NCBI GenBank assembly: GCA_004431415.1
Contig: QPMI01000189.1
Span: 105,493-169,492 of the forward strand
Reading direction: 5' to 3'
DNA from: Cyanophora paradoxa CCMP329
Taxonomy: Eukaryota > Plantae > Glaucophyta
DNA: 64,000 nucleotides
In this document: one piece after another, positions 17,583 to 37,430 of the stretch
Layout of the letters: the number at the start of each line of letters is the position of its first letter
How positions within the stretch are numbered: position 1 is the first letter of the stretch
The notes under the pieces: model-generated
Told to the model about the DNA's origin: nothing
Databases searched by the model: none
The model's input: only the letters and a program-made list of their open reading frames with translations
Translations under genes and position numbers: made by a program

Positions 17583-17599
17583 CTGCGCGGGCGTGAGGG

Positions 17600-17605: not shown

Positions 17606-17676
17606 ACACATATAAAAACAAATATTATTATCCCTCGCGTTCCGCTCAGGATAATAATATTTGTTTTTATATGTGT
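17606..17676. repeat. Terminal hairpin: perfect 28-bp stem with 15-nt loop (mirrored at 44677-44747)
   Basis: acacatataaaaacaaatattattatcc (17606-17633) pairs with ggataataatatttgtttttatatgtgt (17649-17676). Confidence 0.95.
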
Positions 17677-17931
17677 GTTACTATAAGTTATATAAAGATA
17701 TTAGCATTTTTATCATAGTGTATATCGATATGTGATATGTATTCTATCGGTAGTTCGTAAATGAATCAATAAAAATAATATAAGTATCGTGGAATCTTTG
17801 TAAACTATGTATATATAATATGTAATCGCGATATAGCCGATATGTGTTTACGATGCGCGATGTGTATCTAAAACAACTACAATGTGCTGCTTGGGACGCG
17901 CCTCATATAGTCATGTGTATCACCTACGTAG

Positions 17932-18844
17932 CTTCGATAGGGTGGGGCGGGTGGGGTGAGGTGGGGCATTTTTTTGAATTCCCTAAAATGTTTCACTCCC
18001 AAAAATTCTTGGTCAAAAAAGACCCCACCCAACCCCACTTACCCCACCCTGTATTATTCTCTTTATCTATGATTGATTTCAATGTAATTTAAATATAAAT
18101 ATGTATGATTGAGTATGTTAAATTAATACTGGGTGGGGTGTGAGGGTGGGGTGTGAGTGGTATCGGTATGGTAGTCCAATCTAAGATGGCACACATAAAA
18201 TCATGATGTGTTATTTTTACTTCCGGTTTGATACTTATCGGACTTCGATAACTTCGATAGGGTGGGGCGGGTGGGGTGAGGTTGGGCATTTTTTTGAATT
18301 CCCTAAAATAATTCCCCCTCAAAAATTCTTGGTCAAAAAAGACCCCACCCAACCCCACTTACCCCACCCTGTATCTTTTATTATATTTATGATTGATTTC
18401 AATGTTATTAATGTATAAAGTATAGAGATTATGTATGTTAAATTAATACCGGGTGGGGTGTGAGGGTGGGGTGTGAAAGTGGTATCAGCCAACCATTTAA
18501 TAATTACGATATTGAACCGACGTGATACCGACGAGATATGATATATTCAGATCGTATTAGAACGGCGCGATCACTAAGAAAAACAAGTATCATGTGCTGT
18601 ATATTTCGCGATCCCTGAATCGCGAATCGATAGGGTGGGGTGAGAAAGTGGGGCACCACCCTCACTGTATACACTGTGATATGATCGCAATCCCGATGTA
18701 GCCTACTATGATATCGTGCGGACTTCGATAGGGTGGGGTAAGTGGGGTGAGGTGGGGCATTTTTTTGAATCCCTTCAATTTTTGGGGGGTCAAATATTTT
18801 TGGGCAAAAAAGACCCCACCCAACCCCACCCTCCCCACCCTGTA
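17932..18844. repeat. Three ~120-bp G-rich/C-rich palindromic units inside the TIR (~17932-18053, ~18252-18373, ~18723-18844)
   Basis: Each unit reads cttcgatagggtgggg(cg/ta)(g/a)gtggggtgagg…, then an AT-rich spacer, then gaccccacccaaccccac…ccccaccctgta. Confidence 0.9.
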
Positions 18845-19132
18845 TTACTTATCGATACACCTCACTTATTTCAATGTATAAACTTTATTAAATTAGATAG
18901 TAAATATGTATAGAAATAACGAGATTGTAGTATAGGGTGGGGTGTAGGGTGGGGGCAAAATGCAAACTGAATCAGTGCGATATAATTTAGTGAACACAAA
19001 GTGGATATGAAGTGGATACGAAGTGGATACGAAGGGGATAAGTGCGCCCCGCCCACTATGCAAGATACATGCCTTTCTTATGCATGATCTATGAAAAATA
19101 ACAATAAACCCCTCTCTCATTCTTCGAATTCT

Positions 19133-19396
19133 TTACATAGAAGCACTCACAGTAATTTCGCTTGCCTTTCGAACAGTCCCCCGATTAAATGCTTGCTCTA
19201 CAATCGCTTCCTTTGTGAGTGGAATCGGAATTCCAGCAGAAATACACGATTTAACTTCTTTGTCCACAATCTCATCAATCGCAATTCTCGCCCTATTATG
19301 AGCAGCATTATCGATCCAATCCTGAACAGAGTAGGCACAGTATTCCATTCCCAGTTTTTCAGTATCAGTTAGAACCACTTGATAGATGTTCGACAT
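19133..19396 (-). CDS. Small protein (87 aa) resembling phage tail-fibre-associated proteins
   Basis: Clean ATG ORF in the operon-like block. The motif LTDTE..MEY.A.S.QDWIDNA..NRARIAIDEI recalls small proteins found beside C1q-type fibres in marine phages (recollection, not searched). Confidence 0.6.
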   Translation of the reverse strand: MSNIYQVVLTDTEKLGMEYCAYSVQDWIDNAAHNRARIAIDEIVDKEVKSCISAGIPIPLTKEAIVEQAFNRGTVRKASEITVSASM

Positions 19397-19433
19397 TTCT
19401 AATCTTACTATTTATGAAGAAAATAATCAATTG

Positions 19434-20495
19434 CTAACAGCAAAGATGATATATGTATAAGGTAGATCGATTATCAATTGTTACAGCTCCATTGGAAAGC
19501 CCTGTCCATCCCCTGAAATATATTGTATCATTTGCAGCCAAGTTTAATATATACGTTGCATTCATAGCCGCATCTACATTAATAGCTGTATATGCACCCC
19601 CTGTCCAATTAGAATGATCATTTGTTGCTCCATTATAGACAAAGGTTACACCAGTTACAGTAGCTGATTCAGTATTTGTAAACCTCAGATGAACATTGAA
19701 TAAATATTTTCCAGATGCAGGAGCTGTAAATTTATACGTCGTTGTATTAAAAGCACTTCCACCTGAGCTTGAAATCACGTTATTGAATGGAATATTGAAT
19801 ATACCGATACTTGCTGTTGAAGATGTTGCTGATCGAACTCGCCAGTAAGAATGATTTGGAAGAGCAAGATAGCTATCCGTTCCATTAATTGTTAAACCTC
19901 TAAATGTCGTTGTGGCACTATTATTAGTTACAGTGGATGTGAAAGTAGAAGCAATATTAGCCCCATCTCGTTTAATGACCACTTCTGAGTTTCCTCCTGA
20001 GTCGATTGAATTCGTTTTAACCCCACCACTCGCTGTAAGAAGCCCTGAAAAAGTCCCAGTGCTTCCACTAACACCACCATTTGCTGTGAGTAATCCAGTA
20101 AATGAGCCCGTCCCACTAACTGTCGCATTCCCATTGACCCCTAAGCCAGTCCCAATCCATGCCCCGCCACTAACTACTTGAAAAGCCGCGGAATTCCTAT
20201 TAGCCGGATTGAAATCCGTTTGATAATCCGGTTGACCTTCATATAGATTATCTTTGGTAAACAGATCCCCTGTTTTTGCGGGTCGATTAGATACGATCAT
20301 TTGAGTAGCTTTAACGATTCCACCAGCCTTGTCGGCTCTGAGTTCTTTGACTCTGAGAATGGAGTTCTCATTGAAAGAATCGGATTTCGCTGTTTCAGTC
20401 GAAGGGAATGACTCGTTTAGATCATAGACTGTGTGTTGAACATTATGGACAGCACTGGCTGATAAGGAAAACACAGGTGTGAATACAGTCGACAT
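19434..20495 (-). CDS. Fibre-like protein with C-terminal C1q/TNF-like head (353 aa)
   Basis: Gly/Thr-rich beta-repeat shaft (GTGSFTGLLTANGGV/GTFSGLLTASGGV), then IPFNNV…FNTTTYKFTAPASGKYLF…ILNLAANDTIY, which matches the C1q-like pattern. Confidence 0.7.
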   Translation of the reverse strand: MSTVFTPVFSLSASAVHNVQHTVYDLNESFPSTETAKSDSFNENSILRVKELRADKAGGIVKATQMIVSNRPAKTGDLFTKDNLYEGQPDYQTDFNPANRNSAAFQVVSGGAWIGTGLGVNGNATVSGTGSFTGLLTANGGVSGSTGTFSGLLTASGGVKTNSIDSGGNSEVVIKRDGANIASTFTSTVTNNSATTTFRGLTINGTDSYLALPNHSYWRVRSATSSTASIGIFNIPFNNVISSSGGSAFNTTTYKFTAPASGKYLFNVHLRFTNTESATVTGVTFVYNGATNDHSNWTGGAYTAINVDAAMNATYILNLAANDTIYFRGWTGLSNGAVTIDNRSTLYIYHLCC

Positions 20496-20516
20496 CTTTT
20501 GATTGTTCTTTACTTA

Positions 20517-23500
20517 TTAAGCGAGAATATTATTGTTTTGGAGAGGTCCGACAGCAATCCAATGGAGTTTAAGGGTTCTTTCGTTTTGAGGCACATTCGT
20601 ATAATTGATCGCCGAATAACAAGTAAATATAGCAATCCAAGTGAATTTATTTTTGAACCCAATGCGATTCCCGAACTGATATTCAGAAGAGAGATATATG
20701 CTATTGGTGAAATCGACACTCGTTAAAATAATACTGTTTTCGAGAGTAGCATTAACTATTGGATCACTATAATATGGGGTAGAAAACGTAACGGTTCCTG
20801 ATGCTGTAAACACTTGCCCTACTGTATAAACTTGATTAGGTATAACTACATCCACTGTCCCCTGTTGCACATATGCATTTGGATTTACATAGCTACCGAA
20901 ATTCGTGAGCAACTCGATGCTGTGATTGTGAGTAGGTGGCGAAGTAGGTGTGTTAATCAGATCATCATAATTTCCACTTGTAGCCACAGCATGTAGGTTT
21001 GGTGTGTTTATCAGATCATCATAATTTCCACTTGTAGCCACAGCATGTAGGTTTGGTGTGTTTATCAGATCATCATAATTTCCACTTGTAGCCACAGCAT
21101 GTAGGTTTGGTGTGTTTATCAGATCATCATAATTTCCACTTGTGGCAACAGCATGTAAATTCGGTTTAGTAAATAATCTATCCCATGTCCCATTGAAAGG
21201 TAGTGTAGATTCGGATATTATAACACTTTGATCGATCCAGCGAGGTATGTAAGTGGTGAAATCGGGAATTCTTGCTAAATCATAGTAATCACCTGAAAAT
21301 GCTACACTACTCCAAGTTGGCTTCTCAGTAATATCAGTCCATTTACCACTAAATCCCGCCGGGACATCTGTGAGTTCTTTGTAGCTCACCTTTTGTTTTG
21401 GTATGGACAGCTCAATGGGTGAGAATGCATCTGAAAGTGCACCTAATACATATTCTGCACCTAAGTGGACAACAGGGAATGATTGATCATTGGGGGTATC
21501 CACAAAGAAATTCGAAGCATGCACATCACCTGCAATAGTTCCACCTGTTAGTGGTAAATAATCATGATCGTGTGAATCAGGTGGATAGGTCGATGGGGGA
21601 TTGACAATATGCTCCCAGAAATGCTTGTGAACATTGGGTAATTCAAGTCGACTAAATGGAGTGTTTGGATCTAATACATATTCAGCACCAAGGTGGACAA
21701 CAGGAAATGTTTGATCATTTGGAGTGTCCACATAGAAATTCGGAGCATGCACATCACCTGTGAGAGTCCCGCCTGTAAGGGGTAAATAATCCCCAAGAGC
21801 CGACGTTAATTCTGTATCTGTTACATAATCTTCAAGAATTGCTGCAAGTTCTGTATCGTCTACATAGTTTTTACTTTCGAGGTAATCATCTGTTACCACA
21901 CCTGAAAGGGTTGTATTGTGTAAGTTTTTAGCCGCCATTCTCTGATTGACTTCTAAGGCGCCACCTGTTGTTGTTTTAATCCACGCCATCTCGCATTTTC
22001 CGTGATCATCGTATGGTTGTCCCACAAGTGGGATGTAATTGAATTTCGAGCGACTAAATATAATTTTCGGACGTGAACCATCGGTTGCGCTTACATCTGT
22101 TACATTCACTTGTAAAATGGCGTCTTTGTCATCATAAGTTGCTGGATCAGATGGAAGCGGTGGTAAACCTGCTGTAACTGGGATATCCGCATTATAATAA
22201 CTTGTTAAAAATATACCTGGTTTGGTGTCTATTAATGCATCGCCACCAGCTGCTACTAATGTTGTTCTTGTGGGTTGTTTAACATATAGCTCTCCTTCCA
22301 TTGTGGTGCCTGCTTCAATTCCTTTTCGGTGTAAATAGTATTCACTTAATTGTAATCTTTCAGGAATGGTGTCACTCTGATAGAAACTAACCCCATAAAA
22401 TCCGTCACCATTTACTAAATCACCTGTCGATGCAAAACGTGGTTTCTCATCTATTTCCTCCCATGGGTGCCTGTGGTTACTATTAGTTATCTCTGAGTAA
22501 TCATGTGTGTGTTTTCCAGGTGGGAAGGTCGATGGCGGATTCGTGATATGCTCCCATAAATGAGTGTGGGCGAAATCTGTTATTTGATCTTTTGTGTGAG
22601 TGTGTGCAAAATCTGTAATATCTGCTTTTGTGTGTTTTTGCTTTGCTAACCAATCTAAAACAACATTCGATGTCGGATGATTTGGTAGGTTTGCTTCAAT
22701 CTTCACAGTGAGATAATCGACTATTACATTACTTCCATTAATATTACTTGCCCATAGGTTACTGCCATAAATGTTACTGGCATAAATGTTACTGGCATAA
22801 ATGTTACTTGTAACTGTAAGGTTTGATGAAATTGTAAGATTAGATGAAATAACACCACCTTTGAGAGACAAATAATCATGAGTGTGTGGATCAGGTGGGA
22901 AGGTTAATGGTCGATTGGTGATATGCTCCCACAAATGCTCGTGAGAACTGGGCGGATAGGTAAATGGGGCATTGGTGATATGTTCCCACAAATGCTTGTG
23001 AGAATTGGGTAGTTCGATTCGACTAATTGGGGTGTTGTCGCCCAATATAAATTCGGCACCTGTATGCACGACCGGGTTTCTTTGGATATACATATTTGAT
23101 GCACCTATTACAGGTGCTATTATGGGCACATCCGAATTAACGAGATTGCAAGTGATGGAGAAAATGGTTTTAGGGGCGAATAGATTGCAATCAAAGGTCA
23201 CAGTAGCTGGATCAATAGTAGGATCGACGTTTGAACAGATCTGAAACATCCACCCACCCACACAGTTGCAATTTAGATTTCGAAAGACTGTTCCCGCCAT
23301 TGCATCCACATAGCCAATCCCATTTGCTATGTCATATATGTGACCAAACTCGTAACCAAAAATGTCATTCCACAGGTTGGAAGCCATAGCTCCCATCACA
23401 TACCCTTTTAGATCTACTATCAGGTCATTGGATTCACTGGGTATATTGGCATGGGTTATATAAAAATTATTATCCAATACCGCATTCTTTATTGTCGTTT

Positions 23501-23519
23501 CTACTATGGGTTCAGTCAT
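20517..23519 (-). CDS. Tail-fibre-like protein (1000 aa) with HxH and other fibre repeats
   Basis: Repeats of H(K/E/T)HLWEHITN.P..FPP..HTH, HTHTK.DITDF, YLPLTGGT and 4x LHAVATSGNYDDLINTP. C-terminal QQGTV…GTVTFSTPY..DPIV resembles lectin/gp53-like fibre tips. Confidence 0.75.
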   Translation of the reverse strand: MTEPIVETTIKNAVLDNNFYITHANIPSESNDLIVDLKGYVMGAMASNLWNDIFGYEFGHIYDIANGIGYVDAMAGTVFRNLNCNCVGGWMFQICSNVDPTIDPATVTFDCNLFAPKTIFSITCNLVNSDVPIIAPVIGASNMYIQRNPVVHTGAEFILGDNTPISRIELPNSHKHLWEHITNAPFTYPPSSHEHLWEHITNRPLTFPPDPHTHDYLSLKGGVISSNLTISSNLTVTSNIYASNIYASNIYGSNLWASNINGSNVIVDYLTVKIEANLPNHPTSNVVLDWLAKQKHTKADITDFAHTHTKDQITDFAHTHLWEHITNPPSTFPPGKHTHDYSEITNSNHRHPWEEIDEKPRFASTGDLVNGDGFYGVSFYQSDTIPERLQLSEYYLHRKGIEAGTTMEGELYVKQPTRTTLVAAGGDALIDTKPGIFLTSYYNADIPVTAGLPPLPSDPATYDDKDAILQVNVTDVSATDGSRPKIIFSRSKFNYIPLVGQPYDDHGKCEMAWIKTTTGGALEVNQRMAAKNLHNTTLSGVVTDDYLESKNYVDDTELAAILEDYVTDTELTSALGDYLPLTGGTLTGDVHAPNFYVDTPNDQTFPVVHLGAEYVLDPNTPFSRLELPNVHKHFWEHIVNPPSTYPPDSHDHDYLPLTGGTIAGDVHASNFFVDTPNDQSFPVVHLGAEYVLGALSDAFSPIELSIPKQKVSYKELTDVPAGFSGKWTDITEKPTWSSVAFSGDYYDLARIPDFTTYIPRWIDQSVIISESTLPFNGTWDRLFTKPNLHAVATSGNYDDLINTPNLHAVATSGNYDDLINTPNLHAVATSGNYDDLINTPNLHAVATSGNYDDLINTPTSPPTHNHSIELLTNFGSYVNPNAYVQQGTVDVVIPNQVYTVGQVFTASGTVTFSTPYYSDPIVNATLENSIILTSVDFTNSIYLSSEYQFGNRIGFKNKFTWIAIFTCYSAINYTNVPQNERTLKLHWIAVGPLQNNNILA
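20947..21162 (-). repeat. 4 x 54-bp tandem repeat (18 aa PNLHAVATSGNYDDLINT)
   Basis: Units start at 20947, 21001, 21055 and 21109. Confidence 0.95.
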
Positions 23520-23556
23520 TATACTCTATTATGGAATACTACAAAAATTAAGGTTG

Positions 23557-26500
23557 TTACATAACGTTTGGAACATGTTCATATATTCTCCCTTCTCGCT
23601 GTGCCATTTCCGCCATAAAGTCTCTATCATTGTTCATCGTTTGCTCTGCCAATTCTTGTGCTCGTGATTTTTTGGGTGCTGCCCTATTTGCTGGTGGTCG
23701 GTCAGTCCTCACAACACTAAGACCATGCCCCTCGGCTGACCTCACCTCTAACCCAACATCTCCTTCGGCTGTTTGGGTCACATTCAGCTCAGGTGTTGAG
23801 TATTTATTTCCTGCACCTGCAATGGTTCTGTCTATGCATGCACAACACAAAGCTCGGAATTTGTATGCAAGCACAAGCCCAAGAGCACCGAGAATCGGCA
23901 AAAGAATCATAAGCACTAACGTTCCTGGATCAGTTCCCGGTGCTCCGACTGGATTTGTAGGATTTGTGGGATTATTAGGTGTTGTAGGATCAGTGGTAGG
24001 TGGGGTCTGTGGGTCTGACTCATCAGGAGGCAAGTTAGGATCTGAATCTGGGGGCGGTTCCGTCGACCCTGCTAATGAGGTTGGCGCTGTGTATGCATTT
24101 GCAAACACGATGGGAGCCGTCGCTGGATTTCCTGTGGAGGATCCTGAGATTGCACCATAGGTATCTGACAGATATTTATACAATTCCTGTGTCACAGGTG
24201 GATTGCTCACAGATCGACACACCCAAATATTGCATGTGGTATCATAGACTGTGTCCCTGATAAAGGGCGGTAGAGCCGTCCCACTGAATGACTCAAAGAA
24301 TCCATTTCGCGATAGCAATCGATGCCCTGCATCACAATTTCCACCCTCAAAATATTTGGTAGCCGAAATCGCACCTTGCACATAAATATTGCATGTCGAG
24401 TGCAATCCAATGTTATTTAGGTTAGGAGTGTATCTGTCATCAAGCCGGACAGTGCACACCCATGGGGAAGCGGTTTTTATATATTTCTTATCGCCTGCTG
24501 TGATCACATCAGTGTTTGGGTGGCTGTCAATTTGGGTAGCAATAGACTCATATTTGTAAGAGTAATAAACTAAGAGACCATCTGTGGAGGATGTAAAATA
24601 AAAGAAGTCTCTCATGAAGTCTGTGGATCCAAAGAAGTCAGCATTGGTCGATGTTAGGGTGACTCTGGGATAGCTCATGTTGACAGTCTCAGAAGGATAT
24701 GGAATATAAGAGGTGTAATAGCGATTTAACAGATAATAGTAAAATCCATCTGAGACATTCGAGTGAGTGGGCAAGGTGACTGTTAAGGTCTTACTGCGAT
24801 CCTCAAACGTTTTCTGTATGACAATGTTGCAAGTATTAATATATCGAGAATCGAAAAAGTAATTATTTGTGACTCTATTATCGATCAAAGTCGCATTGGT
24901 TCCATTAAACACGAAATTCTGCCCATTGATCCTCGTAGTGTGAATGTCTGTAACATCGAGAGGATACCTTATTTTTAATCGATCTTCGGGGTCAAATCGC
25001 GGAATAGTTCCTGTTGCCTTCCAACTGATAGTAAAGGGAGGAGCAAGGGACACTGCTGGGATAACAGAGAGATTAAATTTCGAAAAATACAACCCAACAG
25101 GATACCCTGACAGAGCATATGTCACTGTTGCATTTCCGACAAGTGTGAAGCCGGTGGTTGTAATGTTTGTCGCAACAAATGGGGAGTAGCCGGCTGGTGC
25201 ATTGTTAATAGAGGTGGTCGACCCATTATTGATCACATACAAATTCGTGTCAGTTATTTCAATAGTAGGAGGGGAAACAAATGGTGTCTCAAATGTGAAA
25301 TTAAAATTCGCTGGAACCGCTGCAAGGTATCTATATGTTGTTGCTGATATCTCGGATGCCTGGAATACTTTGCTTCCCCTCTGCACTACATTACTGGTGT
25401 CTTTCACATTGTGATAGGATATACTGGGAGTCGGGGAGAGCACCAACGAAATAGCATCTGGTAAATCAGACTTTGTAATATACAGCTCTTTAAGATACTC
25501 CTTTTTGAAAGGGGCGGTCAGATCTCCAATAGTAGCCGATGAACCTGCGACTACAATATTACAGGTGTTTGCACTCAAAGAGTAAACTGTGTTCCACCTT
25601 AAAGAATTCGCCCCAAGATCGAAATTCTGTGAGAAGGGCACGATATTGCTACCTTGTAAATCTCGGTAAACCTTTACTCTGGGTTTGCTATCGAATTCAG
25701 GGGTGATATAATTGATGGTAAGAGTGAAACTAATAGTAGCTTCGGAAGTCAATAAGTTGTTTCGGATGATAAGTAAATTGTATGTCTCGTTAATGACAAA
25801 CGAAACCTGAAACCCTGTGGAGGTGACATTTTGGATAAACGCTTTATTAGATTCATTATTGTTAGTGATAGGATTATAATAAGTTGTGTGATCCACCAAT
25901 GAAACAGTGGGTATACTCTCCAAACCTGTGACACCTAACTGATCCCAAGTGAATGTATATGTAGGTTTGCCTACATAAGCGACATAGACCCCATTTGCGA
26001 GCTGCTGAGGGTATCCCTCGACAGTGTAGGTCTCAGTCCGCGAAACTGAGCGGGAAAGGTTGCTATTAAAGTCGTTGTAGCTGATCAGAGCTCTCTCATC
26101 AGTGGGTAAATCACTGGGTCGGACTGAGTGATTGAAAGGCAAGATTATGTTACTTGTTTTTGAGGTCGTGCTATAAAGGTTAGTCGTGTGCAAGTCATCA
26201 AACCACCCATCATAGGCATACACATTCAGCCATTTCTTAACAGCATCAGTGTTAGACTGCCCGAGATTAAACTGATGATCGAGCAAAGGCACCAAATCGC
26301 GGGATAAATACATGATCGCATCAGTGATGGTGATTGCACCTGTTAAAACAGCGAGCCCTGCCGTGTTTGCTGCGGTAGCAATTGATAAACCCGAGATTTC
26401 GAGATCCTGGGCTACATCTCGCTCGTTTCTTGTGAATCGCTCACTATAAAACTCCTTTACAAGGTCGACCCCCATGACCTCAATTAAATGCGGTCGAGTG

Positions 26501-26871
26501 AGGGTGATATTGCTTGTGATGCTCTGCGAATATTTAACAGGATCCCATTCGACGACAGCTGTCAGTGGGATGGGGCGGGCTTTATTGATTTCGTGCTGGA
26601 AGGTTCGCACTGTGGGGAAATTGCTGCCAAAGAATGCAACAGGTGCGCCCCCATGATATATTACGAGGGCTGAGTTATCAGTGCCATAGGTAAAAGGGAG
26701 ATTGCTGGTGATATCGATATATTCAAGGTTGCTCTGGTTTAATAGAAAGTCTTTTACCACAAGGTTCGAGGATATGGTCACATTGGAAGCGGTAATGTTA
26801 CTGCTGAGCTCGAAACCGTCATCCAAATACAAGGTTTCCCGAGTGATAAAGGGGAGATTCGTGATACTCAT
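23557..26871 (-). CDS. Fibre-like protein (1104 aa) with Pro/Thr linker, C-terminal transmembrane helix and tail
   Basis: Two P…F(N/D)LG…W..VY fibre motifs, FTFETPFVSPPTI and SN/TCNI beta repeats. These are followed by a PPPDSDP…PTNP linker, LVLMILLPILGALGLVLAY, CCAC and a ~90-aa charged tail. Confidence 0.7.
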   Translation of the reverse strand: MSITNLPFITRETLYLDDGFELSSNITASNVTISSNLVVKDFLLNQSNLEYIDITSNLPFTYGTDNSALVIYHGGAPVAFFGSNFPTVRTFQHEINKARPIPLTAVVEWDPVKYSQSITSNITLTRPHLIEVMGVDLVKEFYSERFTRNERDVAQDLEISGLSIATAANTAGLAVLTGAITITDAIMYLSRDLVPLLDHQFNLGQSNTDAVKKWLNVYAYDGWFDDLHTTNLYSTTSKTSNIILPFNHSVRPSDLPTDERALISYNDFNSNLSRSVSRTETYTVEGYPQQLANGVYVAYVGKPTYTFTWDQLGVTGLESIPTVSLVDHTTYYNPITNNNESNKAFIQNVTSTGFQVSFVINETYNLLIIRNNLLTSEATISFTLTINYITPEFDSKPRVKVYRDLQGSNIVPFSQNFDLGANSLRWNTVYSLSANTCNIVVAGSSATIGDLTAPFKKEYLKELYITKSDLPDAISLVLSPTPSISYHNVKDTSNVVQRGSKVFQASEISATTYRYLAAVPANFNFTFETPFVSPPTIEITDTNLYVINNGSTTSINNAPAGYSPFVATNITTTGFTLVGNATVTYALSGYPVGLYFSKFNLSVIPAVSLAPPFTISWKATGTIPRFDPEDRLKIRYPLDVTDIHTTRINGQNFVFNGTNATLIDNRVTNNYFFDSRYINTCNIVIQKTFEDRSKTLTVTLPTHSNVSDGFYYYLLNRYYTSYIPYPSETVNMSYPRVTLTSTNADFFGSTDFMRDFFYFTSSTDGLLVYYSYKYESIATQIDSHPNTDVITAGDKKYIKTASPWVCTVRLDDRYTPNLNNIGLHSTCNIYVQGAISATKYFEGGNCDAGHRLLSRNGFFESFSGTALPPFIRDTVYDTTCNIWVCRSVSNPPVTQELYKYLSDTYGAISGSSTGNPATAPIVFANAYTAPTSLAGSTEPPPDSDPNLPPDESDPQTPPTTDPTTPNNPTNPTNPVGAPGTDPGTLVLMILLPILGALGLVLAYKFRALCCACIDRTIAGAGNKYSTPELNVTQTAEGDVGLEVRSAEGHGLSVVRTDRPPANRAAPKKSRAQELAEQTMNNDRDFMAEMAQREGRIYEHVPNVM

Positions 26872-26889
26872 TTGTAATATAAGATTATT

Positions 26890-27862
26890 TTAACCCGATA
26901 GCACCTCTAATATAAAGCTGTGATTAACGCCATTAAAGTTGACTACATTATTGTAGGCGTCGAGCCATTTAATTGTGAGGGTGTCTATATCATAAGCCTG
27001 ATCGTGGGAATTAAAGAACTCCACAGTATCGATTCTGCGGAATGTCAGGTAGTAAACAAACGATCCCAAGGGGCTGGTTAGTGGGATCTTAGCGAGGTTT
27101 GCATTTCCGCCCTCATCTGTCTTTGCTGCTACCATATACCTGTCGTAAAAGGGAGTAAACTCTTTAATTTGTAGGTAAACATAGGGGTCGGATTTAGATT
27201 AATCGCATTTGGAAGGTCACTGCATGTTCGAGAGGGAATGGAAGCACAGATATTCCGGCGGGGTATTTTGTTTTGCCCTCATAGGCTTGTAGAAATGAGT
27301 ATTTTGGATTGCTGGGTGTGAGGGGTAAATAGTCTACCGTGAGATGCTCTGAACCCTCACCAACTGGAATTGTTTGATAAATATCCCCTTTGATCATTCC
27401 ATGGAACCTTGCGAAGTCGTCATGTGCACAGCTCAGTGTGAGGGGAATGCTCGAATAAAACGTAATTTTCATAGTCGCTGGATTATAGAGCCACTTGTAG
27501 TAAACTGTGACGCTTTCGCTTGTGAGAGGGTTTACATCGACAAAGCTGCCCGAATAGCCTAAGTTCTTATTACCATATCCCCAAATCGCTGGGGTGTAGT
27601 TCCCAATATCAGGGAAAGGGGAAAAGGTGATGGTGTTCGTCATTCCCTGTATGGTCACGCCTCTGGAATTATCGGTGACAGCATAAATCGTGTTTGGGAG
27701 CTCGGCGCTCGCAATGCGCACCCCTTTTACGTTCAGAAGTCGCTGAGAAAGCTTTACTGTATATTCTCCCGGGTGCCCTGCACTGCGCTCAATAGAATCG
27801 ATATTAACATTGACCCTCGTAAACTTGCCATTATAGAAATCGTTAACTGGCTTCCGAATCAT
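26890..27862 (-). CDS. Minor capsid (penton)-like protein 1, broken by two 1-nt deletions (~324 aa restored)
   Basis: N-terminal NIDSIERS…YTVKL…NVKGVRIASAELPNT and GNY. Restored junction FPNAINLKSDPYVYLQIKEF. C-terminal LAKIPL…LTIKWLDAYNNVVNFNGVNHSFILEV. These are single-jelly-roll penton-type motifs. Confidence 0.7.
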
Positions 27863-27889
27863 TTTTATTTCCTATTAATAAAGAATAAA

Positions 27890-29175
27890 ATGCGCGAGTA
27901 TCTCAGCATCAGTAGCCGTGATCGATCAGAGGGCTCGGCTCATTCCTATAAGGTGACCCTTCCAAAGCAATACCACAATGTGAAGAGCATCGCTGTGCGA
28001 CAGATCGAATTTTCCAACACGATTCCCACGGTTCCAAGCCCTCAATTCTATACTGAGATCGGGAAACGAAAGCCGATGATGCTAATACGATTTTCATATC
28101 ATTTCCTTACCGATTTTCGAGCGGTCAGCTGAATGGTGCCACTCAGGAAATCAGAGATTCACAGGCAACTGCAATATATGACGCTTACAAAGCCATAGAT
28201 GCTGGCGACCAAGGCAACTATATACCGCCTGATTACCTAAACACTTTCAGAAGATATACCCGATACAGAGACGTAGCAATTACGATCCCTCCGGGCACAT
28301 ACTCGACTGGAACCGACCTTGCCACTGCAATCGATAACATCTTAACGAAAAATGGAACTGGCAACTACATCAAGGATATGATCGACACAAAAATTAATCC
28401 AAGCTACGCATCGACAGGAGGAACCTTTTACCCGGTGGTGAGATGTCGTTTTGAGAGCACATTAAATGCTATATGCTTTTATTCGAGTGATTATGTCTAC
28501 ATAGCTTTCACGAAATATGGACCGAGTAATGCCACTGCGTCTACTGCGAATGAAAGAAAGGTGCTCGCCTATCGCACGATGACTCTTCTCGGGTTTACAT
28601 CGATCAGAGAGAATATAATGATAGATCAATACAACGGATCGGGCTACACAGCCTTCGCTGGGAGCGGTGTCGTTTACTCAGCTGGTGATGCATTCCGCAA
28701 TTATAATTCGACGGCTCTGGTCTTAGGCATAGCCGGAGGCACTGCCCCGGATTATACACCGGATAATGCAATAGTTTTAAAGATCACAGAGCCGGACTGC
28801 TCGCTTTTTACGACATGCACCGAGGCTACTAATGGATTCCTCGCTAAGATCCCGATTTCGAAAGGCACAGCCTATGCTGATGCTGAGCTAATTAATTATG
28901 GGGCGGATGCTTTCACGAAATACTTTAACACCCGCCTCTCCTTTGATAGTTTAACCGTTCAAATTCTCACGGAGAGCGGTTATAGGTATTTCCTCGGAAG
29001 CTGCGAGCACACATTCATTTTGGAAATTACTATGGGAGTGGATGAGCCCGACGACGATTTACAGCGCATTGTTAATAAGGGATTCGCGAAAATGCTCTAT
29101 GAGGACTACCCGCATTGCGGCAATTTAACGAATGCGTTGAGCGGGGTGGCTGTAAAAAATAATCCGTTCTTCTAA
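27890..29175 (+). CDS. Minor capsid (penton)-like protein 2, one 1-nt frameshift near 28062 (~428 aa restored)
   Basis: MREYLSISSRDR…YKVTLPKQYHNVKSIAVRQIEF, ITIPPGTY, FLAKIPI and FDSLTVQILTE…EHTFILEI parallel penton-like protein 1. Confidence 0.7.
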
Positions 29176-29208
29176 AATAAATTTCTCAGCGGAAGATAAA
29201 AACGAAAT

Positions 29209-30655
29209 ATGGATCCCACGACCTCGCTTAGCCGCCTCACGCTCAAATCCGTCCTCGAAACCCCGGAGGATTACAAGAGCATGCTTTTGGATCGCGGATT
29301 TATCGTGGGTGTGGACAAACAATTCAAGCCTTCTCGTGTGGAGGTGCTCCCAATTGCGGATCCCGGCAATCTGTTCTCCTCTACTGGTGCTACCACTCGT
29401 GTGGTCTTCTATCTCCCTCGCTACAATTGGTGCAATGGTATTAGCCTCCAAGTTACCATCCCATCGGCGAAGGCGCTGACTGCCATCGCCAAGACCTCTG
29501 CTGACTGCTCGGCTGATCTATTCAATACTGGATTCGTCCGCGGGCTTCCTGGCTCGTTTGTTCAGCGAGTCAGCATTAAATACGGGTCGTATGAGCAAAT
29601 TATTCCCGCTGAGCGACTGGTAGATTACGCTTTCCTGGCTAACACTCCGGCTGAATTCGATCAAAAGAAGCGCAAGCATGGGCTGCATCTCGGACCGAAG
29701 GTAGAGGGCGGCAACCAAGCTGGCGGCATTTTTACCATGCGAATTCCGAGTTTCCTCGATGCTGGCGTGCCCATCGGTGCGCTCCCATCCGAAATCGCGG
29801 TCGAAGTATATTTCCAAACCCCTGCGCTTCTCGAAACTGCGGCGGTTCCTGGCGTTTACGCTCAGAATAACGCCGCTGCAATTACTGCGACCAATTCTAC
29901 TGATGGCGAGACAACGCTTGCTCAAGCGGCTGCTTTCGGAAATATTAAGACCTTAGCTCACTCGGGTGCCACTGCGATTTTCGATAGTGCGGCTCTCACA
30001 CCTACACCTGCTCTTGCGAATCTGGAAATGACGACCCTCGTCTTATTATGGATGCTGTTAACATCGATGAGGAAACGATGGGCGAAATCATTACTCGTGT
30101 TAAGACCTCTGGCATCGCCATCCCATACACTGATATTCAGTTTGCGGATTATACGGTCAAGCTCTCGGCTCCGGTCTCCGCCTGTCACTATCTCAAATTT
30201 CTGGACTTGTTTACGCACTTGTTGTCAAGATTCGCGACGAAAATGCACTCGGCAACAATTTCGGAGGGCACTCTACTGTCCGCACCCTTGCCTTCGATGA
30301 TAATGTCGTGATGCAAGTTCTAAATAACAACAATTACCTATATTCCAACACTGGTGTCCCGCTGCAATCCGCGGCTATGGAGCTCGCCGATAAATTCAAG
30401 ATGACTAACTGGATCGATAGCAACAAGCGCCCCATTTACACTGGCTTCTGCTTTGCCCTCGATGGTAAAGCGGCGCTCAAAGGTGAGAAGGCGACTGGCT
30501 ATGTCGATCTAACACAATCAGCTTCAAGTTTCCTGCTGCTCACACCAAATGGCACACCCCTCGCCACCTGGACAAAGGTCGGTGTTCAGATCTCGGCTTA
30601 CTGCCACAATATTCTTGTGATGAATGCCAATGGATTGGCACGCGTGACGGCATGA
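29209..30655 (+). CDS. Probable major capsid protein (double jelly-roll), two 1-nt frameshifts (~482 aa restored)
   Basis: Three overlapping ORFs (29209, 30048, 30308) join with two single-base insertions. The size, beta-strand pattern (VVFYLPR, VQRVSIKYG, SQISGLVYALVVKIR, YCHNILVM) and position between penton and ATPase fit an MCP. The fold is inferred, not confirmed. Confidence 0.6.
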
Positions 30656-30760
30656 GGACTGTCGCGGGCAAAATTTGATGTCATTTTTCTGACGTTTTCC
30701 ATAGGAAAACTACTTAAAGAAAAGGCAAATACATAGAGTAAAGGGAAGGAAAGATCAAAA

Positions 30761-31711
30761 ATGCCGATGGGAAAACCTTACACTCAGGAGACATTCATTC
30801 ATAAAGCCAATGAAGTTCATGGAGAAGGGCGTTACGATTATTCCAAAGCGAATTACTCAGGCTGTTACACGAAAATCACAATTATCTGTAAGAAATGTAA
30901 TTGCGAGTTCTTGCAAGCGCCTGCAAAACATATCTATGGTCAGGGATGCAATTCGTGCAATCGGAAAGATGGGGTATCCAAGCAAGCACACCGTGTTACT
31001 AAGGAAGGCTTTATTGAACGATCCAAAGAAATACATGGAGATAAATATGATTACAGCCTTGTGGAGTTTGAAACAATGAAAGACAAGGTCAAGCTCAAAT
31101 GTAACGGATGTGGGCTGTTATTCGATGTCTCTCCTCGAAACCACATCCATATAAAAAATGGATGTCCTGACTGTGGAAGAAAACAAAGTTCAGAAGCTCT
31201 TCGTTTAACTACTGATGAGTTTATTGAGCGAGCAAATGCAATCCATGGAAATAGATATGATTATAGAAAGGTTACATATGAAACTTCTGCAACAAAAGTA
31301 ACTATAATATGCTCATGTGGTAAAGAATTCGATCAAACTCCAAACTCACATTTGGAAGGGGCTGGGTGTCCATCTTGCAACTTATCGAAGGGAGAGATGA
31401 TTATTCAAAACGTCCTCGAAGATATTGGTCTAGATTTTGAAACACAACACACATTCGAAGACTGTAAACTGCAAAACTGTCTTAGATTTGACTTCTATAT
31501 CCCAAGCCTTAAAATTGCAATCGAATATGACGGAATTCAGCATTTCAAAGCCGTTCCATTCTTTGGAGGGGAAGAGCACCTACAATTGACAAAACTGCGC
31601 GATAGTATCAAAAGTAGATACTGTGCAACAAATGGTATTGCCCTGCTGCGAATTGCATACACCGAAAAAGATGTTAATGGGGCTATTAAAAAATTCTTAA
31701 TGTCGTTCTAA
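30761..31711 (+). CDS. Zn-ribbon/DUF723-like repeat protein with C-terminal restriction-like (Vsr/PD-(D/E)XK-type) nuclease
   Basis: Three FIE.A.E.HG..YDY repeats with CxxC pairs. C-terminal LRFDFYIPSLKIAIEYDGIQHF…RDSIKSRYC…LLRIAY. Confidence 0.8.
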   Translation: MPMGKPYTQETFIHKANEVHGEGRYDYSKANYSGCYTKITIICKKCNCEFLQAPAKHIYGQGCNSCNRKDGVSKQAHRVTKEGFIERSKEIHGDKYDYSLVEFETMKDKVKLKCNGCGLLFDVSPRNHIHIKNGCPDCGRKQSSEALRLTTDEFIERANAIHGNRYDYRKVTYETSATKVTIICSCGKEFDQTPNSHLEGAGCPSCNLSKGEMIIQNVLEDIGLDFETQHTFEDCKLQNCLRFDFYIPSLKIAIEYDGIQHFKAVPFFGGEEHLQLTKLRDSIKSRYCATNGIALLRIAYTEKDVNGAIKKFLMSF

Positions 31712-31758
31712 ATACAAAGATCTTATTTTTATTTTGTTTCTTATAAGGGAAAGCAAAT

Positions 31759-32682
31759 ATGACTGGAAACGTGAGTATAGAAGATCTTGCGGAATTCGAC
31801 CCGGCAAGTCTTTCATTCCCTTGCCGTTTACTTGCTGTCGGAAAAACGGGAGTAGGTAAGTCAGTATTCTTAAAATACCTGCTTTACCACAACGAGGACA
31901 AGATAGATTCGGTGATGATATTCGCTTCCACGATCTGGAACCATCAATATGACAATGTCACATCGTATTTGTATGAGGATTTCGATCATAAGCTGATCGA
32001 CAATATAATACAGAAACGCAAGGAGCGAATCAAGAAAAAGGAGAAAGTCGGTAACCTGTTAATCATACTCGATGATTTCATTGACAATCCAAGTCTTTCG
32101 ATGTCAGGAAGAGGTGAACCTATATTAAATCAGCTATTCACGTCGGGGCGCCATTTATTCATATCTGTGTGGATTCTGTCACAAAAACTCACTAAGATTT
32201 CGCCGACACTTAGGGTTAACTCCGAATATATCTTTCTATTCTCGCTGCCCAACAGAAAAGAGATGGAGAGTGCTGAGGACGAGTTTAATCCATACGAAAA
32301 GCATTGGTTTGAGAAGGTGATGAACGAATACAGTCACAGCTATCAGGTTATCTGCATTGACAACTCGAAATATAGCCTGGAATTCTCTGTGGGCAAGGCT
32401 GATCCGGTGCCTGACGAATATAAATTCAAGCGGTTCTTTAAAAAAGCGGTGGAAGAGATAAAGCCCGCTGGTAAACAGCCGGTAAAACAGAGCTCCACAG
32501 AGGTAAATGGCGACCAACCCCAAACCACCGATATAACGAAACCTGTGAGTGGAAACGTCGCCACCTTAAAGCGATCCACCAAAAGAATAATCGAAGCCGA
32601 CCTACTTAAAGACCCCAATCTATTGCTGGCATACCAAGAAAAGCGCCGCCCAAAATTTGCAAAGAAATTGGGTAAATTTTGA
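31759..32682 (+). CDS. A32/FtsK-HerA-type genome packaging ATPase
   Basis: Walker A GKTGVGKS, Walker B LLIILDD, GRHLFIS and SQKLTKISPTLRVN. Confidence 0.9.
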   Translation: MTGNVSIEDLAEFDPASLSFPCRLLAVGKTGVGKSVFLKYLLYHNEDKIDSVMIFASTIWNHQYDNVTSYLYEDFDHKLIDNIIQKRKERIKKKEKVGNLLIILDDFIDNPSLSMSGRGEPILNQLFTSGRHLFISVWILSQKLTKISPTLRVNSEYIFLFSLPNRKEMESAEDEFNPYEKHWFEKVMNEYSHSYQVICIDNSKYSLEFSVGKADPVPDEYKFKRFFKKAVEEIKPAGKQPVKQSSTEVNGDQPQTTDITKPVSGNVATLKRSTKRIIEADLLKDPNLLLAYQEKRRPKFAKKLGKF

Positions 32683-32705
32683 ATAAATTTCTCGCATAAT
32701 GATAA

Positions 32706-33377
32706 ATGCCACCCAAGAACTCGCGGAAAGCTATCCAAATGGAAGATCAAAGCGCTGTTGTCGCTGGCAAGATTAATCCTGCGGAGGATGCCGGTCGCAC
32801 TGGTGGTGCTGCGGCTTCTGACCAAATAGATTTCGACCTAATTGATCCGAATACCAAGGTTTCAGAGCGTGCTCAAAAGGTGGATGCTAAGCGGGAGCCG
32901 GTCGATTCCACTGACAGAAAGCTGGCGGATCAATCCCTCGCTGAATCACAGCTCACAGGGGAAAAGCTTACTGATAATAAGGTGGTAAAAGCCGAAGCCA
33001 CAGCCGCTTTACCTGCATCGATGGAAGCCCCTAAAAAGCGGGCATCTGTCTATGTGACCAAGGGTGAGAAAGTCGGTCAGGAATTAGAGGAGAAGTTTAG
33101 GGCGCTGGAAGCGCGACTGGCTACCTACGACACTACTGTGAGAGCCTTTGATGATTTTACCAAGGACTACAAACAGCGCAAGCTGATTAAACAGGCTGTT
33201 CGAGTGGAAATGGAAAAGAAGCGGGCAACTGTTCCCGATATTCAGACAGTCGAGAAAAAAGAGACAGTCATAGCTGAAAATGCACCAAAGCCGGGCGGTT
33301 TCGTTAACCCATCGGGTGTGCATGCACAGCCGGGTGCCAATCTGTCATCTATGTTTGGTGGGCGTCGTCGCTTCTAA
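32706..33377 (+). CDS. Hypothetical coiled-coil viral protein (223 aa)
   Basis: ATG ORF preceded by the element's AT-rich TTTCTC upstream motif. No domain recognised. Confidence 0.65.
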   Translation: MPPKNSRKAIQMEDQSAVVAGKINPAEDAGRTGGAAASDQIDFDLIDPNTKVSERAQKVDAKREPVDSTDRKLADQSLAESQLTGEKLTDNKVVKAEATAALPASMEAPKKRASVYVTKGEKVGQELEEKFRALEARLATYDTTVRAFDDFTKDYKQRKLIKQAVRVEMEKKRATVPDIQTVEKKETVIAENAPKPGGFVNPSGVHAQPGANLSSMFGGRRRF

Positions 33378-33577
33378 TGTGCAAGTCGTTCAAACATAAA
33401 TGAATCCGCCCGTATTTAGAGCGGGTCTTAATATGAATTCCCTTGCAATAGGGACAGGTCGGCTCCACAAACACCATTATAAGGTCGACTAATTCGTATG
33501 GGAACACACGAGCAAGTAACACCCTCATTCCCTTTTCTTTTCTCCAATATTTAATACGTTGTGCAATATTAGGATCT

Positions 33578-33925
33578 ATGAATTTCATCACACAATGTAT
33601 TGAGATGTTTCACCTACATTTCATATCTCACTGTAAGTCCGGATGCTGCGACACAACCGTAGAGTTTGACATTTCTGACGAGGATAATGGAGGTAGGCGA
33701 TTATCTGTATATTCCAACCACAGCGATAATCACGATCGTCCCCGATCTCGATCGCCCTCGCCTGTGCCCGCTGACTCCAATATAATCCCACAGGTAGCAA
33801 TAGAAGACGTGCAAGTATCCTATATAAGACGCCGGTCGTGCCCTAATTTCGTAGAAGGTCATATTCGCGTTGATTCGCCATATCCGCCAATTAATCCGCT
33901 TTATTTGGGCGAATACGATCGCTGA
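33578..33925 (+). CDS. Hypothetical viral protein (115 aa; CKSGCC and RS-rich motifs)
   Basis: ATG ORF co-oriented with its neighbours. Confidence 0.45.
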   Translation: MNFITQCIEMFHLHFISHCKSGCCDTTVEFDISDEDNGGRRLSVYSNHSDNHDRPRSRSPSPVPADSNIIPQVAIEDVQVSYIRRRSCPNFVEGHIRVDSPYPPINPLYLGEYDR

Positions 33926-33952
33926 AACAATTTTCGCGGTAAATAGTATCGA

Positions 33953-34093
33953 ATGCCCGACCCTGATCTCTACGCGATCCTATACAGGAAACGCGCGCAA
34001 TATGCACTGGAAGCCGCTATTAAAAAACGTAGAGAAGAGCTCGCTTCGGTCACAAAAAATGACAGCTCAGAAAATGATTTAAAGAAGAAATAG
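33953..34093 (+). CDS. Small hypothetical protein (46 aa, MPDPDLYAILYRKRAQYALEAAIKKRREEL…), below ORF-track cutoff
   Basis: ATG at 33953, TAG at 34091-34093. Fills the gap between neighbouring genes. Confidence 0.4.
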   Translation: MPDPDLYAILYRKRAQYALEAAIKKRREELASVTKNDSSENDLKKK

Positions 34094-34142
34094 CAAAGAC
34101 CACTGATAAAAATATTTTCTCAGCTTAAAGTAAGGTAAACCA

Positions 34143-34364
34143 ATGGAGACGCATGCTATGACTGTGTATGATAAGAACGGGAACCCGGTAGATCTCGATA
34201 AGGCGGGCTGGCGTGTCAGGGATATATATAAACAGCGGATGCGCTATAACGACGATCCCGAATATCGCGAATTAATAAAGAAAAAGGCGCTGGAATATTA
34301 CTACCGTCGCAAGCAAGAAGAGGGCATTCACAGTGGAAACCGCGGGCGACCCCGAAAGTATTAA
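34143..34364 (+). CDS. Small basic protein with AT-hook-like RGRPRKY
   Basis: 73-aa Lys/Arg-rich ORF preceded by a 25-nt motif identical to the one upstream of ORF 41106. Confidence 0.6.
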   Translation: METHAMTVYDKNGNPVDLDKAGWRVRDIYKQRMRYNDDPEYRELIKKKALEYYYRRKQEEGIHSGNRGRPRKY

Positions 34365-34543
34365 ACGCAATCCGCCGCTGAATCCATTCCTTATTTTTCA
34401 AGCGGCTTTCCGATGCATATCGGCAAGCTCCCTAATCGTTTTTAGTCATCGGGAAAAAATTTGTAGGGCATTTAAAGACAACTCGCCAAAATTTGATCAG
34501 CCTAAGAAAAATTAATTTCTTGCATAAAGGTAGAAAGCGACAA

Positions 34544-36887: not shown

Positions 36888-36960
36888 TTACAAATGAATT
36901 GAAAATGATTACTTTCGTGTGTATTTTTTATAACCTGCGGCAAATTGTAGTTGTTTACGT

Positions 36961-37051: not shown

Positions 37052-37162
37052 CTGACCATTTTCAGTAAGCCCCTTTTAATATTTGTGGAACTTTAAACAT
37101 GAATATGTAAAAATTGATCATGTTATATAAGAGTTCCTTTGATTGTTTGTAGTGACTTAGAA

Positions 37163-37408: not shown

Positions 37409-37430
37409 AAATGTTCCCTTAGAGTAAAAG

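What the first reader, a model, noticed from the sequence alone, without database searches (positions are those of the whole stretch)
19133..26871. Block of bacteriophage-style tail-fibre genes in a eukaryotic virus
About 7.7 kb (over a quarter of the element) encodes co-oriented proteins built from motifs typical of phage fibres: HxH repeats (HTH/HKH, metal-binding in trimeric fibres such as T4 gp12/gp37), YLPLTGGT, LHAVATSGNYDDL.N.P, P…DLG…RW..VY, lectin/gp53-like tips and a C1q-like head. They are transcribed in the same direction as penton 1. Inference: the virion carries several different trimeric receptor-binding fibres, acquired from or shared with tailed phages, for binding host glycans or a helper giant virus.
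Basis: partly seen in the sequence, partly recalled or inferred. Interest (0 to 1): 0.8.

Follow-up and report, generated by a model that had tools for sequence, protein, structure and literature searches.

The report
Phage fibre cassette in algal provirus
A 27-kb virus integrated in a GC-rich, likely algal genome carries two phage-style attachment-fibre genes, a trait already reported for such viruses, plus two extras: a small helper gene that travels with one fibre type in tailed phages and likely came with it, and an orphan lectin-like protein with a predicted membrane anchor.

Summary
The four genes exist, co-oriented behind a penton-like gene in a 27.1-kb Polinton-like virus (1,442-bp inverted ends, 6-bp target duplication). 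They are not four fibres. The 1000-aa gene holds all the HxH, YLPLTGG and ATSGNY motifs and matches phage tail proteins. The 353-aa gene ends in a C1q head. The 87-aa gene is a small helical protein, 45-59% identical to proteins of tailed phages, where it follows a C1q-ending gene in 54 of 71 and 43 of 57 cases. The pair likely came from phage as a cassette, and sister copies in this genome appear to swap the C1q head. The 1104-aa gene has no homologue in four searches, two weak H-lectin-like domains, and a proline-rich stalk, a transmembrane helix and a tail under purifying selection, which a soluble vertex fibre would lack. Trimer formation was not tested. Phage-like fibres in such viruses are in print (PMC12220804, Gezel-14T, virophage DSLV2), so the headline is known. 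I found the cassette and the anchored orphan neither in print nor in earlier scan notes; those notes supplied the unverified host name Cyanophora. New variant of a known kind; interest 0.4.

The parts
17606..44747 (.). Integrated Polinton-like virus, about 43% GC in a flank of mostly 62-82% GC
17606..19047 (.). Left terminal inverted repeat (1,442 bp; 4 differences from the right arm at 43308-44747); 6-bp target duplication at 17600-17605 and 44748-44753
19133..19396 (-). 87-aa helical protein; partner gene of C1q-headed fibre genes in tailed phages; likely assembly helper or cap
19434..20495 (-). 353-aa fibre-like protein: Gly/Thr-rich shaft and C1q head (head at 19437-19883); distal part unique to this copy among sister elements
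20517..23519 (-). 1000-aa phage-type fibre: HxH repeats (about 22455-23012), three YL[PS]L[TK]GG motifs, four 18-aa ATSGNY repeats (about 20952-21167), beta-rich tip of unassigned family
23557..26871 (-). 1104-aa orphan: two weak H-lectin-like domains (about 25690-26067 and 24994-25419), Pro/Thr stalk (23923-24084), transmembrane helix (23860-23922), 100-aa tail; no signal peptide
26890..27862 (-). Penton-like gene 1, in pieces in this assembly (penton identity rests on a weak DUF5901 hit and recalled motifs)
27890..29175 (+). Penton-like gene 2, a paralogue of gene 1 (piecewise E 5e-6 and 4e-4), in pieces
29209..30655 (+). Probable major capsid gene in pieces (no family hit; assigned by position and size, recalled)
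31759..32682 (+). A32-type packaging ATPase
   Evidence: Pox_A32 E 9.7e-11
35553..36887 (+). D5-like helicase; PrimPol piece at 34544-34981
37431..40694 (+). Protein-primed type B DNA polymerase
   Evidence: DNA_pol_B_2 E 1.8e-11
41778..43220 (+). rve-type integrase (Pfam hit below cut-off)

Best explanation
The block is likely the attachment module of this Polinton-like virus: the 1000-aa and 353-aa proteins would form two kinds of trimeric fibre with sugar-binding tips, the 87-aa protein likely helps fold or cap the C1q-headed fibre and likely arrived with it from tailed phages, and the 1104-aa protein is predicted to be membrane-anchored rather than a free fibre. Shown here: the element and its genes; the phage-type repeats; the C1q head; the tight gene pairing in phages; variation of the C1q region between sister copies; and purifying selection on the stalk and tail around the membrane helix. 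Inferred: trimers; docking at the vertices (the element has two penton-like paralogues, which could take one fibre each); glycan ligands; the helper role of the small protein; the direction of transfer; and that tip swapping tracks changing surface receptors, as in phage variable islands.
For: Element: inverted ends, 6-bp duplication, A32 ATPase, pPolB, integrase. 1000-aa protein: 11 PHROG families, 6 of them tail or tail-fibre; 205 phage records by tblastn, best E 3e-26 to a Ralstonia phage tail fibre; 615 database proteins, all local matches; weak PDB matches to a tail-collar fibre and an R-pyocin fibre (E 0.0055 and 0.1). C1q head: Pfam above cut-off; a profile of it with 37 phage heads finds 40 solved C1q/TNF sequences. 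Cassette: the gene directly upstream of the small-protein homologue carried Pfam C1q in 12 of 15 tested. By my own profile, 54 of 71 non-edge unique cases in the first 102 loci and 43 of 57 in 79 further loci. Long genes without C1q were followed by it in 4 of 116 and 1 of 263 cases. The carriers sit among tail, terminase, portal and sheath genes. GC3 is 0.35, 0.29 (head 0.22) and 0.32 for the 87-, 353- and 1000-aa genes, against 0.49-0.55 for penton, capsid, ATPase, helicase, polymerase and integrase, including the penton on the same strand. In three DNA runs the C1q region lies on single contigs of depth 37-75 with no differences, while other listed contigs of the element reach hundreds to thousands, and joints bridge from the small gene or its upstream gap to the shaft across other sequence. 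The same pattern is reported for C1q genes of marine phages (PMC3909814, passages). A fibre protein is in purified Gezel-14T virions (10.1101/2022.07.28.501842, passages).
Against: No trimer model was obtained, and there are no virion, expression or binding data for this element. The match of the 1000-aa protein is to short repeats that also occur in bacterial proteins (several top hits are Bacteroidales FISUMP proteins), so a phage origin is not proven for that gene. Its tip has no family hit beyond one unknown PHROG (E 0.0018). The loci were selected for the small gene, are related to each other, and the first C1q profile was seeded from them, so the pairing counts are not independent events. 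In 13 of 71 and 13 of 57 cases another gene lies upstream. The tree places the 87-aa protein on a long branch with no supported sister, so no donor is identified. The tool warns that contig depth is not copy number. The penton and capsid identities are weakly supported here, and those genes are in pieces in this assembly.
Confidence: 0.65

Rival explanations
1. All three long proteins are soluble vertex fibres. The hydrophobic helix of the 1104-aa protein is folded away in the virion and serves only to enter the host membrane at infection.
For: It is co-oriented with, and 18 nt behind, the penton-like gene. Atlas look-alikes of residues 185-640 are viral proteins, including Gp53-like_C (35% of members of one cluster) and H_lectin clusters, at scores 0.82-0.86, leads only. 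There is no signal peptide (best 10-residue hydropathy 1.16 in the first 45 aa), which argues against a normal secreted type I membrane protein.
Against: The helix is preceded by a 54-aa stalk that is 78% P/T/S/D/N and followed by basic residues and a Cys cluster, the usual layout of an anchor (established knowledge). No HxH or ATSG repeats. No homologue among phage fibres.
Confidence: 0.2
2. The fibres bind bacteria or a helper giant virus rather than the host surface: the virus hitchhikes on prey or on a co-infecting particle, as proposed for virophage DSLV2.
For: DSLV2's three consecutive tail genes lie next to its minor capsid gene and are related to Synechococcus phage genes, and their product binds Synechococcus LPS (PMC12724248, abstract and first part of Results). 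The cassette here occurs in a Synechococcus phage and a Limnohabitans phage.
Against: No ligand data. The DSLV2 proteins are about 200-250-aa collar-domain paralogues forming a heterotrimer, unlike these four dissimilar proteins (cross-matches are only short). C1q-head identity to phage heads is only 15-27%, so the donor's specificity need not be kept.
Confidence: 0.2
3. The 87-aa protein is a ribbon-helix-helix-like regulator or a generic tail accessory whose position beside C1q genes reflects co-transfer, not physical partnership.
For: The model starts with an extended segment and two helices. Several weak structural rows are antitoxins or MatP over residues 1-57 (Z 3.4-4.2, rmsd 2.6-4.3). 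It also follows other small tail genes in 13 of 71 and 13 of 57 cases.
Against: Those Z values are within the tool's stated noise. Some phages repeat the gene after each of two successive C1q genes (L004, L007), which fits one helper per fibre better than a regulator. The other upstream genes resemble tail-assembly chaperones (recalled motif, not searched).
Confidence: 0.2
4. The block is decaying cargo in a dead provirus and has no current function.
For: The penton, capsid and primase-helicase genes are in pieces in the window.
Against: The four ORFs are uninterrupted. Variants between copies are mostly synonymous: 24 of 33 in the last 230 codons of the 1104-aa gene against 25% expected without selection, and 14 of 21 and 6 of 7 among the best-supported rows for the two long genes (only 40 of 495 rows were shown). 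The penton and capsid breaks coincide with single-base differences against short-read contigs of all three DNA runs, which points to assembly error. The inverted ends differ at only 4 places.
Confidence: 0.05

Closest known systems
Bacteriophage-like fibre proteins of endogenous PLVs (Bulzu et al., PMC12220804; section 13 part 1 read, supplements searched for four terms)
   Same: Long modular proteins over 1000 aa with phage tail repeats and lectin modules in PLVs, proposed to bind the penton and the host surface. One Cyanophora paradoxa PLV has two phage-tail repeats plus a C-terminal H_lectin.
   Different: C1q is not mentioned in the main text or the two supplementary files (0 occurrences). 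No S74 chaperone, laminin G or collagen here. No membrane-anchored fibre-like protein or phage partner gene in the section read. The 1000-aa protein here gave no PTR or H_lectin Pfam hit, so it is not shown to be their example.
Ltf of Gezel-14T / PgVV-14T (10.1101/2022.07.28.501842, passages read) and the tail fibre gene of Tetraselmis PLVs (10.1101/2025.10.09.676808, passages read)
   Same: A phage-like fibre gene in the structural module of an algal PLV; Ltf was found in purified virions.
   Different: One fibre gene with gp36-like repeats there, against two fibre genes, a partner gene and an anchored orphan here.
Tripartite tail proteins of virophage DSLV2 (PMC12724248, abstract and first part of Results read)
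   Same: Several consecutive, co-oriented, phage-related fibre genes adjacent to the minor capsid gene.
   Different: Three similar collar-domain proteins forming a heterotrimer in a virophage, against four dissimilar genes in an integrase- and pPolB-bearing PLV.
C1q-domain receptor-binding genes in variable islands of marine and cryoconite phages (PMC3909814 and PMC7468147, passages read)
   Same: C1q head beside tail-fibre genes, with a conserved N-terminal part and a variable head among close relatives.
   Different: Here the host is a eukaryote and the variants are integrated sister copies in one genome. The passages read do not name the downstream 87-aa partner.

Membership tests
Polinton-like virus / Polinton (Maverick) | Long terminal inverted repeats and a 6-bp target-site duplication | tested here: met
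   1,442-bp arms with 4 differences; duplication at 17600-17605 and 44748-44753
Polinton-like virus / Polinton (Maverick) | A32-type packaging ATPase | tested here: met
   Pox_A32 E 9.7e-11, above cut-off
Polinton-like virus / Polinton (Maverick) | Protein-primed polymerase B and rve integrase | tested here: met
   DNA_pol_B_2 E 1.8e-11; rve E 0.0086 (below cut-off) with PHROG transposase E 9e-6
Polinton-like virus / Polinton (Maverick) | Double jelly-roll major capsid protein and single jelly-roll penton | tested here: inconclusive
   No family hit for the capsid pieces; DUF5901 E 0.024 for penton piece 1; no PDB sequence match; not folded
Phage-type trimeric tail fibre (1000-aa gene) | HxH and tail-repeat shaft homologous to phage tail proteins | tested here: met
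Phage-type trimeric tail fibre (1000-aa gene) | Elongated homotrimer, metal bound by the HxH motifs | not tested
C1q-headed fibre (353-aa gene) | C-terminal C1q domain | tested here: met
   Pfam 25.6 bits against cut-off 23.7; PHROG 15750 E 5e-10; profile hits to solved C1q domains
C1q-headed fibre (353-aa gene) | Trimer; part of the virion | not testable with these tools
   Needs biochemistry or proteomics
Phage-type tail fibre (1104-aa gene) | Homology to phage fibre shafts or tips | tested here: inconclusive
   No sequence homologue; H_lectin below cut-off; Atlas leads under 0.9; model unusable
Phage-type tail fibre (1104-aa gene) | Soluble protein without a membrane anchor | tested here: not met
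   Transmembrane-type helix at residues 984-1004, hydropathy 2.64, with stalk and basic Cys-rich flank; a prediction from hydropathy only
Tail-fibre assembly chaperone (87-aa gene) | Encoded directly downstream of its fibre gene | tested here: met
   54 of 71 and 43 of 57 unique non-edge cases
Tail-fibre assembly chaperone (87-aa gene) | Sequence or fold of a known Tfa/gp38-type family | tested here: inconclusive
   No matching Pfam, PHROG or PDB family; no significant fold match
Tail-fibre assembly chaperone (87-aa gene) | Binds the fibre and is needed for its folding | not testable with these tools
   Needs co-expression or pull-down

The most novel reading that the evidence does not exclude
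This PLV family runs a phage-style receptor arms race inside one host genome. Its sister copies exchange C1q heads within a two-gene cassette taken from tailed phages, whose 87-aa member is an undescribed C1q-fibre chaperone. It also encodes a membrane-anchored lectin fibre that ties the virus to a membrane (an inner virion membrane, the helper giant virus's membranes or the host surface as a decoy), which would be a new attachment mode for viruses thought to be naked capsids.
Probability: 0.2. Interest if true: 0.75.

Novelty: new variant of a known kind. Interest (0 to 1): 0.4.

Why it matters
How Polinton-like viruses recognise their hosts or helper viruses is open, and fibre genes are the main candidates. 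The general presence of phage-like fibres is known. This locus adds three testable handles: (1) a whole two-gene phage cassette kept intact in a eukaryotic virus, better evidence of exchange with tailed phages than shared short repeats; (2) a family of small phage proteins of no assigned function that can now be tested as the C1q-fibre helper; (3) a conserved, membrane-anchored lectin-like orphan next to the penton, which, if virion-associated, would imply a membrane in or on these particles.

Tried and rejected
No whole genome is held, so sister copies could not be read; their variation is seen only through short-read contigs. Complex prediction of the C1q head (3 copies) with the 87-aa protein (3 copies) returned no answer (score 0.07, alignments not used, controls not folded) and is not counted either way. 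The single-sequence model of the 1104-aa protein was unusable (pLDDT 32.6) and was not used for a fold search. Searches for relatives of the 1104-aa protein were blank: word-indexed search, 1.84 billion representatives, cultured phages, viral contigs, PDB, segment scans of PHROG and Pfam and my own loci. The 1000-aa protein and the ATPase found no related viral contig, so no related PLV was obtained and the distribution among PLVs and giant viruses is untested. None of 79 loci with the small gene matched the element's ATPase, capsid, penton, polymerase or integrase, and 0 of 5 records had Pox_A32; both checks are of low sensitivity. Fold searches of the 87-aa model gave no significant match. 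The tree of that protein did not resolve a donor. No RNA holder was listed, and the one guessed RNA run gave a single short contig; neither says anything about expression. Paper searches: 'C1q'+'virophage' gave 3 off-topic papers; 'Polinton-like'+'transmembrane'+'fiber'+'penton' gave 0; 'polisuvirus'+'fiber' gave 0; 'C1q'+'phage'+'tail fiber'+'chaperone' gave 4, of which I read passages of one; one search was uninformative. Subscription journals and bioRxiv supplements were not searchable and may describe these genes. Earlier scan notes held no look-alike of the 87-aa or 1104-aa proteins and nothing near this place.
Full report
Context. The finding lies in an element at 17606-44747 of about 43% GC within a flank of mostly 62-82% GC. 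It has 1,442-bp inverted ends that differ at 4 places and a 6-bp target duplication. It encodes an A32 ATPase (E 9.7e-11), a protein-primed polymerase B (E 1.8e-11), a D5-like helicase and an rve-type integrase. Two penton-like paralogues (piecewise E 5e-6 and 4e-4 to each other) and a probable major capsid gene are in pieces; their identity rests on weak hits and recall. This is a Polinton-like virus. All 20 runs that hold the block come from one organism label. I did not determine the host. Earlier scan notes on this genome name the glaucophyte Cyanophora paradoxa, which is unverified here.

The observation. Four minus-strand ORFs of 87, 353, 1000 and 1104 aa fill 19133-26871, separated by 37, 21 and 37 nt, with 18 nt to the last penton-like piece. 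All 10 HxH motifs (shuffle mean 1.66; 0 of 2000 shuffles reach 10), the three YL[PS]L[TK]GG motifs and the four LHAVATSGNYDDL repeats are in the 1000-aa protein.

The 1000-aa protein. It matches 11 PHROG families, 6 annotated as tail or tail fibre, and 205 phage records by tblastn, best E 3e-26 to a Ralstonia phage tail fibre. The large search gave 615 proteins; the 120 listed are all local matches covering 6-44% of the query, and several top ones are Bacteroidales FISUMP proteins. One database protein carries the same three motif types. PDB matches are weak, to a tail-collar fibre and an R-pyocin fibre. It is a phage-type fibre shaft built from a repeat pool shared by phages and bacteria. Its tip has no confident family. 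Trimer formation was not tested.

The 353-aa and 87-aa pair. The 353-aa protein ends in a C1q domain (Pfam 25.6 bits, cut-off 23.7; PHROG E 5e-10); a profile of it with 37 phage heads finds 40 solved C1q/TNF sequences. [quoted passage not shown] They include a Synechococcus phage and a Limnohabitans phage, sit among tail, terminase, portal and sheath genes, and their Atlas clusters are mostly Uroviricota. The gene directly upstream carried Pfam C1q in 12 of 15 tested. With a profile seeded from 11 of those genes, 54 of 71 non-edge unique cases in loci L001-L102 followed a C1q-ending gene (13 other, 4 none, 9 edge cases set aside). In 79 further loci found with a broader alignment the count was 43 of 57 (13 other, 1 none, 2 edge). 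Long genes without C1q were followed by the small gene in 4 of 116 and 1 of 263 cases, against 52 of 68 and 40 of 59 for C1q-ending genes. The loci were chosen for the small gene and are related, so these are not independent events. Still, the window reproduces a phage gene pair in the same order. GC3 is 0.35, 0.29 and 0.32 for the 87-, 353- and 1000-aa genes (0.22 in the C1q head), against 0.49-0.55 for the core genes including the same-strand penton, and 0.43 for the 1104-aa gene. That fits later arrival, by inference. A tree left the 87-aa protein on a long branch with no supported sister. Its model is confident and helical (pLDDT 89) but has no significant fold match; weak rows include ribbon-helix-helix antitoxins. 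A helper or cap role is inferred from position alone.

Variation among sister copies. Laid on three DNA runs, 19368-20092 lies on single contigs with no differences at depth 46 and 75 (and 19529-20092 at depth 37 in the third), while most other listed contigs of the block reach hundreds to thousands. Joints link the small gene or its upstream gap (19237, 19362, 19397) to the shaft (20032, 19851, 19941) across other sequence. Further joints lie within the 1000-aa and 1104-aa genes. Depth is not copy number, but the simplest reading is a multi-copy family in which the C1q head differs between copies while the partner gene and the shaft base are shared. Marine and cryoconite phages show the same pattern (PMC3909814 and PMC7468147, passages). 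The breaks in the penton and capsid genes coincide with single-base differences seen in contigs of all three runs, four of five beside short base runs. These are likely assembly errors, though decay of this copy is not excluded.

The 1104-aa protein. It has no homologue at E 0.001 in the word-indexed search, among 1.84 billion representatives, or in viral contigs, and none at E 0.01 in cultured phages. It has two H_lectin hits below cut-off (E 0.007 and 0.004). Atlas look-alikes of residues 185-640 are viral clusters (Nucleocytoviricota, Uroviricota, Gp53-like_C, H_lectin) at 0.82-0.86, leads only. The fold prediction failed. Residues 930-983 are a stalk of 78% P/T/S/D/N, 984-1004 a hydrophobic helix (hydropathy 2.64), followed by basic residues, a Cys cluster and a 100-aa tail. 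There is no signal peptide. Between copies, 24 of 33 variants in 23557-24250 are synonymous against 25% expected without selection (stalk 6 of 8, tail 12 of 17, none listed inside the helix). The expectation ignores transition bias and the variants are not independent, but the excess is large. One contig shows a short compensated frame change in the tail. So the anchor is a kept part of the gene, and this protein should not be filed as a soluble fibre. Its topology is unresolved: the flanks look like a type I anchor, but the missing signal peptide would leave the large domain in the cytosol.

Mechanism. Most likely the 1000-aa and 353-aa proteins are trimeric virion fibres with glycan-binding tips, possibly one per penton paralogue. 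The 87-aa protein likely assists the C1q fibre, the head is likely exchanged among copies under receptor-driven selection, and the 1104-aa protein likely acts from a membrane (confidence 0.65 overall). Rivals are an entry helix on a third soluble fibre, hitchhiking on bacteria or a giant virus, a regulatory role for the small protein, and decay.

Comparison and novelty. [quoted passage not shown] Gezel-14T carries such a protein in its virions and Tetraselmis PLVs have a tail-fibre gene in their structural module (passages). Virophage DSLV2 has three consecutive phage-related tail genes next to its minor capsid gene (abstract and part of Results). Adintovirus-like genome maps label fibre genes too (PMC8502044, passages). 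C1q heads also occur on eCIS fibres (PMC12923769, passages). The headline is therefore known. My searches found no description of a C1q-plus-partner phage cassette or a membrane-anchored lectin-like protein in a PLV; coverage excludes most subscription journals and bioRxiv supplements. Verdict: new variant of a known kind, interest 0.4. The bolder reading has probability 0.2 and interest 0.75.

Noticed in passing
window 17606-17676 and 44677-44747: Each end of the element is a 71-nt palindrome with 28-bp perfect arms and a 15-nt centre (read); earlier scan notes describe similar hairpin ends on sister elements.
   Followed up: no
window 17929-18852 and its mirror in the right arm: The terminal repeats contain several internal copies of a GGGTGGGG-rich block in direct and inverted orientation.
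   Followed up: no
window 26872-26892: The 1104-aa ORF starts 18 nt after the stop of the last penton-like piece, in the same frame and with no further stop between; may be chance (one in three).
   Followed up: no
window 30761-31711: Homing-endonuclease-like gene (PHROG 559, E 1e-80) with low GC3 (0.34) between the capsid and ATPase genes; lower contig depth than its neighbours suggests it is present in only some copies.
   Followed up: partly
window 34544-36887: PrimPol and D5-like helicase are separate ORFs here, probably one broken gene; the element carries both this and a protein-primed polymerase.
   Followed up: no
window about 17138-17605 and 44748-45297: The element interrupts what looks like a host F-box/leucine-rich-repeat reading frame on the minus strand (ORF text; domain names recalled, not searched).
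   Followed up: no
L063:1353-1607: A distant paralogue of the 87-aa family (16-19% identity) also follows a C1q-ending gene in a phage contig, directly before a typical member.
   Followed up: partly
window 3073-5196: Host tandem array of 114-bp units in a long coiled-coil-like ORF.
   Followed up: no
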